A stretch of DNA of 64,000 bases, taken from assembly GCF_024502345.1 (NCBI RefSeq), contig NZ_JALDNN010000001.1; one strand, 5' to 3'. The position numbers were made by a program, and so were the translations under genes. Positions 31,672 to 33,066 of the stretch are shown here, piece by piece. Source of the stretch: Escherichia coli. GTDB taxonomy: Bacteria; Pseudomonadota; Gammaproteobacteria; Enterobacterales; Enterobacteriaceae. The first letter of the stretch is position 1. Each line of letters starts with the position of its first letter. The notes beneath the pieces are model-generated. The model searched no databases, had not been told where the DNA came from, and saw only the letters and a program-made list of their open reading frames with translations.

Positions 31672-31806
31672 GGCTGGCGGGATACTTTTTACTATCAACG
31701 ATAAGGTCAGGCTGAATTAGCGGGTTTTAACATCAAACATTGGTTTGCAGATGGCGCGTTTCGCACCATTATTCGCAATAGCGCCTGGTTAGGCTCCAGT
31801 AATGTC

Positions 31807-33066
31807 GTGAGCGCCTTGCTGGGTCTGTTGGCGCTCTCGTGTGCCGGTAAAGGGATGACGCCCGCCATGTTTGGCGTACTGGTGATTGTACAATCGTACG
31901 CCAAGTCGATCAGCGATTTTATTAAGTTTCAGACATGGCAGCTGGTGGTTCAGTACGGAACACCAGCATTAACCAACAATAATCCGCAGCAATTCCGCAA
32001 TGTCGTCTCATTTTCCTTCTCGCTGGATATCGTCAGCGGCGCGGTGGCGATTGTCGGCGGCATTGCCTTACTCCCTTTTCTTTCCCATTCATTAGGTCTG
32101 GATGACCAAAGCTTTTGGCTGGCGGCGCTGTATTGCACGCTCATTCCTTCAATGGCTTCCTCCACGCCGACCGGCATTCTGCGTGCGGTAGATCGCTTTG
32201 ATTTGATTGCTGTACAGCAGGCGACGAAACCTTTTCTGCGCGCAGCGGGGAGCGTCGTAGCCTGGTATTTTGACTTTGGTTTTGCGGGTTTTGTTATTGC
32301 CTGGTACGTGTCGAATCTGGTTGGCGGCACCATGTACTGGTGGTTTGCCGCGCGCGAATTACGCCGCAGAAATATCCATAACGCCTTCAAATTGAATCTG
32401 TTTGAGTCTGCCCGACACATTAAAGGCGCGTGGAGTTTTGTCTGGTCAACCAACATTGCCCACTCCATCTGGTCGGCGCGTAACTCGTGCAGCACAGTGT
32501 TGGTGGGGATCGTGTTAGGACCCGCTGCCGCCGGGTTATTTAAAATCGCCATGACATTCTTCGACGCCGCCGGAACGCCAGCGGGTTTGCTGGGTAAAAG
32601 TTTTTACCCAGAGGTGATGCGTTTAGATCCGCGCACCACCAGACCGTGGTTGTTAGGTGTGAAGTCCGGTTTACTGGCGGGCGGAATCGGTATTCTGGTG
32701 GCGCTCGCGGTGTTGATCGTCGGCAAGCCGCTCATTTCGCTGGTGTTTGGCGTTAAGTATCTCGAAGCGTATGACCTGATTCAGGTGATGCTGGGCGCAA
32801 TTGTGATCTCGATGCTGGGCTTCCCTCAGGAGTCATTGCTATTGATGGCGGGAAAACAGCGCGCTTTTCTCGTGGCGCAAACCATCGCCTCAATCGGCTA
32901 CATCGTATTGCTGTTCATGTTCTGTCATCTGTTTGGCGTGCTGGGAGCAGCGTTTGCTTATTTCGGCGGTCAATGTCTGGATGTGGTGCTTTCGCTAATT
33001 CCGACCTTAAAGGCATTTTTTCAGCGCCATTCCTTGCTTTATAACGCAGCCGGAGAGAAATCCTGA
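31807..33066 (+). CDS. yghQ: Polytopic inner-membrane protein YghQ (MOP/flippase-like); GTG start, frame open from 31705
   Basis: 419-codon ORF with many TM helices; no in-frame ATG at the N-terminus. Confidence 0.7.
   Translation: MSALLGLLALSCAGKGMTPAMFGVLVIVQSYAKSISDFIKFQTWQLVVQYGTPALTNNNPQQFRNVVSFSFSLDIVSGAVAIVGGIALLPFLSHSLGLDDQSFWLAALYCTLIPSMASSTPTGILRAVDRFDLIAVQQATKPFLRAAGSVVAWYFDFGFAGFVIAWYVSNLVGGTMYWWFAARELRRRNIHNAFKLNLFESARHIKGAWSFVWSTNIAHSIWSARNSCSTVLVGIVLGPAAAGLFKIAMTFFDAAGTPAGLLGKSFYPEVMRLDPRTTRPWLLGVKSGLLAGGIGILVALAVLIVGKPLISLVFGVKYLEAYDLIQVMLGAIVISMLGFPQESLLLMAGKQRAFLVAQTIASIGYIVLLFMFCHLFGVLGAAFAYFGGQCLDVVLSLIPTLKAFFQRHSLLYNAAGEKS

What the first reader, a model, noticed from the sequence alone, without database searches (positions are those of the whole stretch)
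31705..31809. yghQ has no ATG start and its frame is open 100 nt upstream
The flippase-like ORF begins at a GTG at 31807, but the same frame is open back to a stop at 31702-31704 without any ATG, GTG or TTG; the upstream translation is hydrophobic. The gene may be 5'-truncated relative to an ancestral longer flippase, or it genuinely starts at the GTG.
Basis: seen in the sequence. Interest (0 to 1): 0.3.

Follow-up and report, generated by a model that had tools for sequence, protein, structure and literature searches.

The report
Lost start codon in yghQ flippase
In this E. coli strain one G-to-A change has destroyed the TTG start codon of the yghQ membrane-flippase gene, whose older ATG start had already decayed to ATC in all Escherichia, so the full-length protein is probably made weakly or not at all; this is ordinary decay of an accessory gene.

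Summary
The yghQ frame is open from TAA 31702-31704 to GTG 31807 with no ATG, GTG or TTG. The cause is one base: window 31719 is A, giving codon 31717-31719 = TTA. Other E. coli have TTG there, and NCBI annotates it as the yghQ start (449 aa). Only 1 of 5426 complete E. coli genomes (CEA224S) shares the A.

In 47 of 47 non-Escherichia orthologs the gene starts five codons further down at ATG-AAR. That position (31732) is ATC in every Escherichia examined. The start therefore moved once (ATG to ATC, with an upstream TTG and a new TAAGG ribosome-binding site), and this strain then lost the TTG.

The 25 residues upstream of the GTG are conserved coding sequence with 10 invariant residues, so the GTG is not the native start.

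The rest of the ORF is intact and encodes the commonest YghQ protein. The same gene cluster (sphingolipid-type: spt, acp, reductase, acyl-AMP ligase, LptF/G paralogs) carries two private frameshifts in this window. CEA224S has a nonsense mutation in the cluster.

The most likely reading is a start-loss allele in a decaying accessory cluster. Interest is low.

The parts
31702..31704 (+). In-frame TAA that bounds the open yghQ frame upstream. It also forms the first bases of the TAAGG Shine-Dalgarno-like element.
31702..31711 (+). Shine-Dalgarno-like TAAGGTCAGG, 10 nt (TAAGG) or 5 nt (AGG) upstream of codon 31717. It has the best anti-SD pairing of all candidate starts (-6.5 kcal/mol). It is specific to Escherichia; other genera have TAACC here.
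31717..31719 (+). TTA codon, the mutated start. Other E. coli and the other Escherichia lineages sampled (E. whittamii, Escherichia sp. E1V33 and MOD1-EC7003, and L078, an 88%-identical relative of unnamed origin) have TTG here, and NCBI annotation uses it as the yghQ start (449 aa). The difference is G to A at 31719.
31732..31734 (+). ATC codon at the position of the ancestral ATG start. It is ATG-AAR in 47/47 non-Escherichia orthologs and ATC in all Escherichia examined. PGAP calls it the start in CEA224S, the other TTA genome; a 444-aa protein with this window's sequence (WP_256632862.1) is also in NCBI.
31735..31806 (+). Conserved N-terminal coding sequence (KHWFADGAFRTIIRNSAWLGSSNV). It is the cytoplasmic lead-in and first half of transmembrane helix 1, and would be missing from a GTG-initiated product.
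31807..31809 (+). GTG, the first canonical in-frame start in this strain. It is residue Val31 of the native protein, has a weak SD, and is not the native start.
31717..33066 (+). yghQ coding frame (449 codons plus stop). It has no internal stops, and apart from the start codon it encodes the commonest E. coli YghQ protein. It matches the MOP/PST flippase families Pfam PF01943 and PF13440.

Best explanation
yghQ in this strain is a start-loss allele. Shown: the ancestral start of this flippase gene is an ATG at the position of window 31732. In the Escherichia lineage that codon is ATC, and an in-frame TTG five codons upstream (31717), preceded by a lineage-specific TAAGG/AGG ribosome-binding site, is the only canonical start in the open frame. 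In this window the TTG has become TTA through a G-to-A transition at 31719. Inferred: ribosomes recruited to the TAAGG site now find no usable start codon. Full-length YghQ can only arise from rare initiation at the near-cognate AUC, roughly 0.02-3% of AUG efficiency in reporter assays. The first canonical start, GTG 31807, has a poor ribosome-binding site and would give a protein lacking 10 invariant N-terminal residues and about half of transmembrane helix 1. Functionally the gene is therefore silenced or strongly down-expressed. The mutation sits in an accessory sphingolipid-type cluster that is decaying in this strain, with two private frameshifts nearby, so selection on the flippase is probably relaxed.
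For: 1. The window differs from K-12 and Combat11I9 by a single base in 31660-31830: TTA versus TTG. PGAP starts yghQ at that TTG.
2. The allele is very rare. A 35-mer spanning the A hits 1 of 5426 complete genomes. 4299 of 4618 genomes with the locus carry the exact TTG+ATC consensus 81-mer.
3. 47/47 non-Escherichia orthologs have ATG-AAR at the ATC position. In 33 of them no other in-frame canonical start precedes it. No complete E. coli genome matched a 35-mer with the consensus flanks and ATG at that position.
4. All Escherichia lineages sampled keep TTG...ATC. They have TAAGG or GAAGG where other genera have TAACC. SD pairing is -5.2 to -6.5 kcal/mol for the TTG site, -4.0 for ATC in the window, and -3.6 for GTG.
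5. The N-terminus is conserved: K7 F10 D12 G13 R16 R20 N21 A23 L25 S27 are invariant in 19 orthologs. Pfam and NCBIfam alignments start at residues 19 and 18.
6. The ORF is otherwise intact and identical to the commonest YghQ protein, seen on at least 1000 contigs. The change is therefore recent.
7. The window has private frameshifts in the cluster's reductase-like gene (38936) and in yghO (42160), while 30 flanking CDSs are intact. The only other TTA genome, which is unrelated at this locus (97.7% identity), has a nonsense mutation in the cluster's fatty acyl-AMP ligase.
8. Reporter data for initiation codons: GUG/UUG give 10-100% of AUG, AUC 0.02-3%, and other codons 1% or less (bioRxiv 10.1101/063800).
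Against: There is no experimental mapping of the yghQ start in any strain, so use of the TTG is an inference from annotation, SD position and conservation. The TTG and ATC are only 15 nt apart, and the ancestral leader motif in front of the ATC is still recognisable. Some AUC initiation may therefore be normal, in which case the SNP would matter less. The ORF carries no further lesion, so loss of function is not shown. The concentration of lesions in the cluster is only suggestive: for two coding frameshifts, P is about 0.08 by length. The raw reads of the source assembly could not be checked.
Confidence: 0.72

Rival explanations
1. In Escherichia the real start is the AUC at 31732, the position of the ancestral AUG. 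The TTG lies in the 5' leader, so TTG to TTA is a neutral change and the gene is expressed as before at a low level. This is how NCBI annotates the two TTA genomes.
For: ATC is positionally homologous to the universal ATG and is fixed in Escherichia. The ancestral leader motif GGC(T/G)GGTTTT-A(A/C)C is retained in front of it. In CEA224S PGAP starts the CDS at the ATC (444 aa, WP_322407749.1), and a 444-aa protein with this window's sequence is in NCBI as WP_256632862.1. AUC does initiate at a measurable level, with N-terminal Met. The same SNP arose in two backgrounds that differ by 2.3% at this locus, as expected if it is tolerated.
Against: AUC gives only 0.02-3% of AUG activity. The stronger SD in Escherichia is placed for the TTG, not the ATC, and is a lineage-specific gain from TAACC to TAAGG. 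In L078 the ATC site has almost no SD (-1.5) while the TTG site keeps -5.2. TTG is conserved in all Escherichia lineages and in all but one of the complete genomes that match a probe spanning it. The SNP itself weakens pairing upstream of the ATC from -5.3 to -4.0. Both TTA genomes have other disabling mutations in the cluster, which fits relaxed selection better than neutrality in a working pathway.
Confidence: 0.15
2. The gene genuinely starts at GTG 31807 and makes a functional 419-aa flippase.
For: It is the first ATG/GTG/TTG in the open frame of this strain. GUG is an efficient start codon.
Against: No ortholog starts there, and the codon is an internal Val. The 24 residues upstream are conserved, 10 of them invariant. 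The family profiles align from 12-13 codons upstream. The most hydrophobic 19-residue window is 25-43, so a start at residue 31 cuts into helix 1 (the low-confidence model has a helix at 13-43). SD pairing is weak at a long spacing. The exact 419-aa product is absent from a collection of about 15 billion proteins.
Confidence: 0.04
3. The A at 31719, and the two nearby frameshifts, are sequencing or assembly errors. The strain really has TTG.
For: All three lesions are private or nearly private. One deletion lies beside a GATC site. The 444-aa protein matching this window is known from a single 4.74-Mb contig, and the window's source record could not be identified. Raw reads could not be inspected.
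Against: The base change is a plain transition outside any homopolymer or Dam/Dcm motif. The same allele occurs in an independent complete genome. Thirty flanking CDSs, about 31 kb of coding sequence, show no frameshift or stop, so the assembly is not generally error-prone. The other differences from the nearest genome are ordinary, transition-rich polymorphism.
Confidence: 0.08

Closest known systems
E. coli yghQ (b2983) as annotated in K-12 and other E. coli (WP_000896861.1, 'lipopolysaccharide biosynthesis protein', TTG start)
   Same: It is the same gene at the same locus, between yghR and the 274-aa ORF. The protein is identical to the commonest 449-aa form apart from the start codon.
   Different: The start codon is TTA instead of TTG. 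K-12 has a different lesion: its C-terminus is cut off next to an IS5 and the rest of the cluster is missing.
MOP-superfamily / PST-family flippases (Pfam Polysacc_synt PF01943, Polysacc_synt_3 PF13440; WzxC-type PRK10459)
   Same: It matches PF01943 (43 bits, cutoff 28.2) and PF13440 (31.6 bits, cutoff 23) above threshold. The prediction is all-helical and polytopic.
   Different: It is only distantly related to characterised Wzx proteins: 34 bits against PRK10459, whose cutoff is 273. No solved relative is detectable by sequence. Its genomic partners are sphingolipid-type genes, not O-antigen or capsule genes.
Putative flippase CC_1166 and second LptC/F/G copies of the Caulobacter crescentus sphingolipid cluster (PMC11324152)
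   Same: The gene neighbourhood follows the same logic: spt, a dedicated ACP, an acyl-AMP/CoA ligase, a reductase-like gene, LptF/LptG paralogs and a flippase-like gene. The E. coli B Spt is an experimentally studied member of this Spt group. YghQ orthologs occur at 46-57% identity in Sphingomonadales.
   Different: Homology between YghQ and CC_1166 was not tested here. No lipid product of the E. coli cluster is known to me. The function is inferred from context only.
Natural non-canonical start codons in E. coli (AUU of infC and pcnB; from my own knowledge)
   Same: If the AUC were used, yghQ would likewise be a gene kept at low expression by a near-cognate start that is conserved across a genus.
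   Different: Use of the AUC is unproven. An in-frame TTG with a better-placed SD exists in all other Escherichia. No autoregulatory logic like that of infC is apparent.

Membership tests
Pfam Polysacc_synt (PF01943) / Polysacc_synt_3 (PF13440), MOP flippase superfamily | Score above the curated gathering threshold | tested here: met
   PF01943 scores 43 bits against a cutoff of 28.2. PF13440 scores 31.6 against 23.
Pfam Polysacc_synt (PF01943) / MOP flippase superfamily | Polytopic fold of about 12-14 transmembrane helices | tested here: inconclusive
   The AlphaFold2 model is all-helical with about 12-14 long helices, but mean pLDDT is 60.9 and the N-terminal 33 residues are below 50. No PDB relative is found by sequence.
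Pfam Polysacc_synt (PF01943) / MOP flippase superfamily | Lipid-linked substrate flipping activity | not testable with these tools
   This needs biochemistry or genetics.
WzxC-type MOP flippase (NCBIfam NF007773 / PRK10459 equivalog) | Score above the equivalog cutoff | tested here: not met
   34.4 bits against a cutoff of 273. It is a distant relative, not an equivalog.
E. coli YghQ orthologous group | Near-identical full-length sequence and conserved position between yghR and the 274-aa ORF | tested here: met
   The 449-codon frame is identical to P0121, the commonest YghQ. Synteny matches Combat11I9 and FDAARGOS_943.
E. coli YghQ orthologous group | Canonical start codon (TTG in Escherichia, ATG elsewhere) | tested here: not met
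   The window has TTA at 31717 and ATC at 31732.
Start-loss pseudogene or decaying gene | Loss of the start codon that close relatives use | tested here: met
   TTG to TTA, shared by 1 of 5426 complete genomes.
Start-loss pseudogene or decaying gene | Further disabling lesions in the same ORF | tested here: not met
   The ORF has no internal stop or frameshift, and the protein is identical to the common form.
Start-loss pseudogene or decaying gene | Other signs of relaxed selection on the pathway | tested here: met
   The window has private frameshifts in the reductase-like gene and in yghO. CEA224S has a nonsense mutation in the acyl-AMP ligase. Flanking genes are intact.
Start-loss pseudogene or decaying gene | Loss or strong reduction of protein output | not testable with these tools
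   No initiation-site or proteomic data were found for yghQ.
Genes with a functional near-cognate (AUC/AUU) start | Near-cognate codon conserved at the start position across the clade | tested here: met
   ATC is present in all Escherichia lineages sampled, and no complete E. coli genome matched the ATG probe.
Genes with a functional near-cognate (AUC/AUU) start | No canonical in-frame start that could serve instead | tested here: not met
   An in-frame TTG with an SD lies 5 codons upstream in all other Escherichia. It is absent only in this window and in CEA224S.
Genes with a functional near-cognate (AUC/AUU) start | Experimental evidence of initiation at that codon | not testable with these tools
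   No data were found.

The most novel reading that the evidence does not exclude
Escherichia YghQ is normally initiated, at least in part, at the AUC that replaced the ancestral AUG. It would then be a natural AUC-start gene in E. coli, held at very low expression, and the TTG-to-TTA strains would still make functional full-length flippase. The conserved ATGGCTGG-T(n)-ACC leader in front of the start would then be the real initiation or regulatory element of this gene family.
Probability: 0.12. Interest if true: 0.4.

Novelty: new member of a known kind. Interest (0 to 1): 0.13.

Why it matters
The main value is for annotation. A gene caller that accepts only ATG/GTG/TTG will report a 419-aa, N-terminally truncated flippase here. 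NCBI reports a 444-aa protein from an ATC start. The biologically sensible label is probably 'start codon lost relative to the 449-aa form'.

The case also gives a small, clean example of start-codon turnover. An ATG conserved across two orders of Gammaproteobacteria was replaced in Escherichia by an upstream TTG with a newly gained Shine-Dalgarno site, and that TTG was then lost again in rare strains.

It also adds to the picture that the E. coli sphingolipid-type cluster (yghT to yghO) is dispensable and frequently eroded. About 15% of complete genomes lack the yghQ region, about 10% of the rest have it truncated, and K-12 lost most of the cluster next to an IS5. None of this is surprising to a specialist.

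Tried and rejected
1. Structure. The AlphaFold2 model built from 19 orthologs was too poor (pLDDT 60.9; N-terminal 33 residues below 50) to define helix 1 or to justify a fold search. A profile search of PDB sequences found nothing.

2. Experimental start-site evidence. A full-text search for yghQ returned 12 papers, none about its start. The Ribo-RET preprint has no held supplements. The TRAINSPOTTER N-terminomics supplements do not mention yghQ or b2983.

3. Source of the window. An exact-protein look-up found the 444-aa ATC-start product as WP_256632862.1 on one 4.74-Mb contig. No gene position was on record, so the source DNA could not be retrieved. The best complete genome is only 99.2% identical over 20 kb.

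4. RNA element or promoter in the yghR-yghQ spacer. There was no Rfam match at E<=1 and no sigma-70-like promoter. One weak terminator-like hairpin lies inside the yghR 3' end, at a count no higher than in the shuffled controls.

5. A conserved upstream ORF as an explanation of the ATGGCTGGTTTTT motif. This was rejected because the frame of that ATG relative to the main ATG changes with the length of the T run.

6. A 5' deletion or truncation of the gene. This was rejected because the window is collinear with other E. coli and has a single substitution in 31660-31830.

7. An antisense ORF (31707..31904, minus strand, 65 aa). It was not pursued. It lies inside conserved yghQ coding sequence and there is no evidence for it.

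Full report
**1. The observation**

- An in-frame TAA sits at 31702-31704.
- It is followed by 34 sense codons: GQAELAGFNIKHWFADGAFRTIIRNSAWLGSSNV. None is ATG, GTG or TTG.
- The first canonical start is GTG 31807, which opens a 419-aa ORF ending at 33066.

Two details need correcting.
- A run of 34 start-free sense codons is not unusual by chance (about 0.18).
- The upstream peptide is not hydrophobic. Its GRAVY is -0.03.

The locus is E. coli pitB-yghT-yghS-yghR-yghQ.

**2. The cause is one base**

I aligned window 31660-31830 with E. coli Combat11I9 and K-12 ER3413. There is exactly one difference, at window 31719: A in the window, G in the others. This makes codon 31717-31719 TTA instead of TTG.
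- In both reference genomes NCBI's pipeline starts yghQ at that TTG. Combat11I9 has a 1350-nt CDS (449 aa, WP_000896861.1). In K-12 the same start heads a pseudogene whose C-terminus is missing next to an IS5.
- 4618 of 5426 complete E. coli genomes have the locus. Of these, 4299 carry the exact consensus 81-mer with TTG.
- Only one genome, CEA224S, carries the window's 81-mer.
- A 35-mer centred on the A cannot seed a megablast hit on G-allele genomes. It hits CEA224S alone among 5426 genomes.
- CEA224S is only 97.7% identical to the window over 5 kb. The best relatives, at 99.2%, have TTG. The allele therefore probably arose twice.

**3. Where the gene starts in relatives**

A protein search returned orthologs of 444-445 aa from many genera, including Citrobacter, Pluralibacter, Shimwellia, Erwinia, Pantoea, Serratia, Klebsiella, Sodalis, Rahnella and Tatumella. 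All begin MK-x-WF-[SA]-DGAFR. Their Met aligns with Ile6 of the E. coli protein MAGFNIKHWFADGAFR.

I fetched the DNA of 74 related loci and read the start region in 47 non-Escherichia orthologs from Enterobacterales and Xanthomonadales.
- All 47 have ATG followed by AAA or AAG at the position of window 31732.
- In 33 of them no other in-frame ATG/GTG/TTG lies between that ATG and the preceding stop. Several have a stop within the five codons just upstream.
- Every Escherichia sampled has ATC at that position and TTG five codons upstream. The sample was E. coli, a 91%-identical E. coli-labelled lineage, E. whittamii, Escherichia sp. E1V33 and MOD1-EC7003, and an 88%-identical relative.
- No complete E. 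coli genome matched a 35-mer with the consensus flanks and ATG at that position.

The history is therefore in two steps. First, in the Escherichia lineage, ATG became ATC and the upstream in-frame TTG became the only canonical start. Second, in this strain, TTG became TTA.

**4. Is the TTG a credible start?**

Ten nucleotides upstream of it Escherichia have TAAGG (GAAGG in the most divergent lineage), plus an AGG at 5-nt spacing. The homologous bases in other genera read TAACC.

| Site | Anti-SD pairing (kcal/mol) |
|---|---|
| TTG site, Escherichia lineages | -5.2 to -6.5 |
| Neighbouring genes yghR and the 274-aa ORF | -6.4 and -6.6 |
| ATC site, E. coli consensus | -5.3 |
| ATC site, this window (the SNP weakens it) | -4.0 |
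| ATC site, most divergent Escherichia (L078) | -1.5 |
| GTG 31807 (12-nt spacing) | -3.6 |
| Main ATG in 47 orthologs (median) | -4.0 |

The E. coli TTG is itself homologous to an ATG in a conserved leader motif, (T)ATGGCTGG-T(4-7)-AYC. In other genera that ATG is in or out of frame depending on the T-run length. It is in frame in Serratia proteamaculans, S. liquefaciens and Erwinia JUb26, exactly as in Escherichia. These points favour the TTG as the working Escherichia start, but this remains an inference. I found no initiation-site or N-terminal data for yghQ.

**5. The GTG is not the native start**

- Residues 7-30 are conserved in all orthologs. K7, F10, D12, G13, R16, R20, N21, A23, L25 and S27 are invariant in the 19-sequence alignment.
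- The Pfam Polysacc_synt match (43 bits, cutoff 28.2) begins at profile position 2 on Ile19 (31771), 12 codons upstream of the GTG.
- The weak NCBIfam MOP-flippase match begins at residue 18.
- The most hydrophobic 19-residue window is 25-43. The low-confidence AlphaFold model puts the first long helix at 13-43.
- A protein starting at Val31 would lose the charged lead-in and roughly half of helix 1.
- The exact 419-aa product is not found among about 15 billion database proteins. The 449-aa form with otherwise identical sequence is the commonest YghQ (at least 1000 contigs). A 444-aa ATC-start form, WP_256632862.1, is recorded from a single 4.74-Mb contig, which is probably the source of this window.

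**6. What happens in this strain (inference)**

In reporter assays GUG and UUG initiate at 10-100% of AUG. The near-cognates, including AUC, initiate at 1-2% (0.02-3% in other constructs). All remaining codons initiate at about 1% or less (bioRxiv 10.1101/063800). UUA differs from AUG at two positions.

Full-length YghQ should therefore fall to whatever the AUC supports. The GTG product would be truncated and poorly initiated. I conclude that this is a start-loss allele that is functionally silent or strongly down-expressed. The mutation is recent, because the ORF is otherwise perfect.

**7. Context supports relaxed selection**

In the closest complete genome the neighbourhood is: yghT, yghS, yghR, yghQ, a 274-aa ORF, a YtfJ-family gene, LptF and LptG paralogs, spt (serine palmitoyltransferase), an acyl carrier protein, an NAD-dependent epimerase/dehydratase-family gene, a fatty acyl-AMP ligase, and yghO. 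This resembles the Caulobacter sphingolipid cluster, which also has second Lpt components and a putative flippase (PMC11324152). The E. coli B Spt has been studied (PMC9386255).

I compared the window gene by gene with that genome.
- There is a +1 frameshift at 38936 in the epimerase/dehydratase-family gene, giving stops from codon 42.
- There is a -1 frameshift at 42160 in yghO, giving a stop at codon 358.
- Probes spanning each allele matched no complete genome.
- Thirty flanking CDSs in the window are intact: four and 26. The assembly is therefore not generally error-prone.
- In CEA224S, the only other TTA genome, the cluster's acyl-AMP ligase is flagged 'internal stop'.
- Across E. coli the locus is clearly dispensable. 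About 15% of complete genomes lack the yghQ region and about 10% of the rest have it truncated. K-12 is one of the truncated cases.

**8. Rivals**

- The AUC could be the real Escherichia start, which would make the SNP neutral. This is how NCBI annotates the TTA genomes and I cannot exclude it. I give it about 0.15.
- A functional GTG-initiated protein is unlikely (about 0.04).
- A sequencing error cannot be excluded without reads. It is disfavoured because the allele is seen independently and the flanking genes are clean (about 0.08).

**9. Verdict**

The finding is real and now explained. It is a rare single-base start-codon loss in a gene whose start had already moved once in the genus, inside an accessory cluster that is eroding in this strain. 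It matters for annotation and is a tidy example of start-codon turnover, but it is ordinary biology. Interest is low.

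Noticed in passing
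window 38936 (gene on minus strand, 39041..38126): There is a private +1 frameshift (an extra A; GGGCAAGTAC versus GGGCAGTAC) in the NAD-dependent epimerase/dehydratase-family gene of the spt cluster. It gives stops from codon 42. A probe spanning it matched none of 5426 complete E. coli genomes.
   Followed up: yes
window 42160 (yghO, 41130..42271, plus strand): There is a private -1 frameshift (a missing T beside GATCGAT) in yghO, giving a premature stop at codon 358 instead of the normal 380-aa product. A probe spanning it matched none of 5426 complete genomes. It could be a real lesion or a sequencing error near a Dam site.
   Followed up: yes
L082 3517-5205 (E. coli CEA224S, NZ_CP166080.1 3374016-3375704): CEA224S is the only complete genome that shares the yghQ TTA allele. 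Its fatty acyl-AMP ligase gene in the same cluster is annotated as a pseudogene (internal stop). Both start-loss genomes therefore have a second lesion in the cluster.
   Followed up: partly
window 29302-42271: Non-K-12 E. coli carry a 13-gene cluster here: yghT/S/R kinase-like genes, the yghQ flippase, a 274-aa ORF, a YtfJ-like gene, LptF/LptG paralogs, spt, acp, a reductase-like gene, an acyl-AMP ligase and yghO. It resembles the Caulobacter sphingolipid synthesis and export cluster. K-12 has lost everything between yghQ codon 355 and yghO next to an IS5. No lipid product of the cluster is known to me.
   Followed up: partly
window 31715-31734; L011, L016, L020, L023, L027, L030 and others at about 2480-2515: A leader motif, (T)ATGGCTGG-T(4-7)-AYC, is conserved directly upstream of the orthologous ATG in many Enterobacterales. 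Its ATG is in frame with the gene only when the T run is 4, so it is not a conserved upstream ORF. There is no Rfam match and its function is unknown. In some species GGCTG recurs two or three times at intervals of about 10 nt.
   Followed up: partly
window 31702-31706 versus the homologous TAACC in L011, L020, L027, L033, L034: Escherichia have TAAGG (GAAGG in L078) where other genera have TAACC. This looks like a Shine-Dalgarno site gained at the right distance for the Escherichia-specific TTG start.
   Followed up: partly
window 33064-33068: The yghQ stop TGA overlaps the ATG of the next ORF (TGATG; 274 aa, no family assignment). This suggests translational coupling, so loss of yghQ translation could also lower expression of the downstream gene.
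   Followed up: no
L031 (NZ_SZPQ01000026.1, labelled Martelella alba): A contig labelled as an alphaproteobacterium carries a yghQ ortholog at 71% identity with the Enterobacterales-type leader motif. It may be a contaminant or mislabelled contig, or a recent transfer.
   Followed up: no
window 30108-30881 (yghS): The mechanical ORF starts at ATG 30108 (257 aa). NCBI annotation of the same gene starts at GTG 30168 (237 aa). This is another gene in the operon with an uncertain start.
   Followed up: no
L080 13802-14686 (FDAARGOS_943 yghA) versus window 13576-14460: yghA is flagged as a pseudogene (internal stop) in the closest complete genome but is intact in the window.
   Followed up: no
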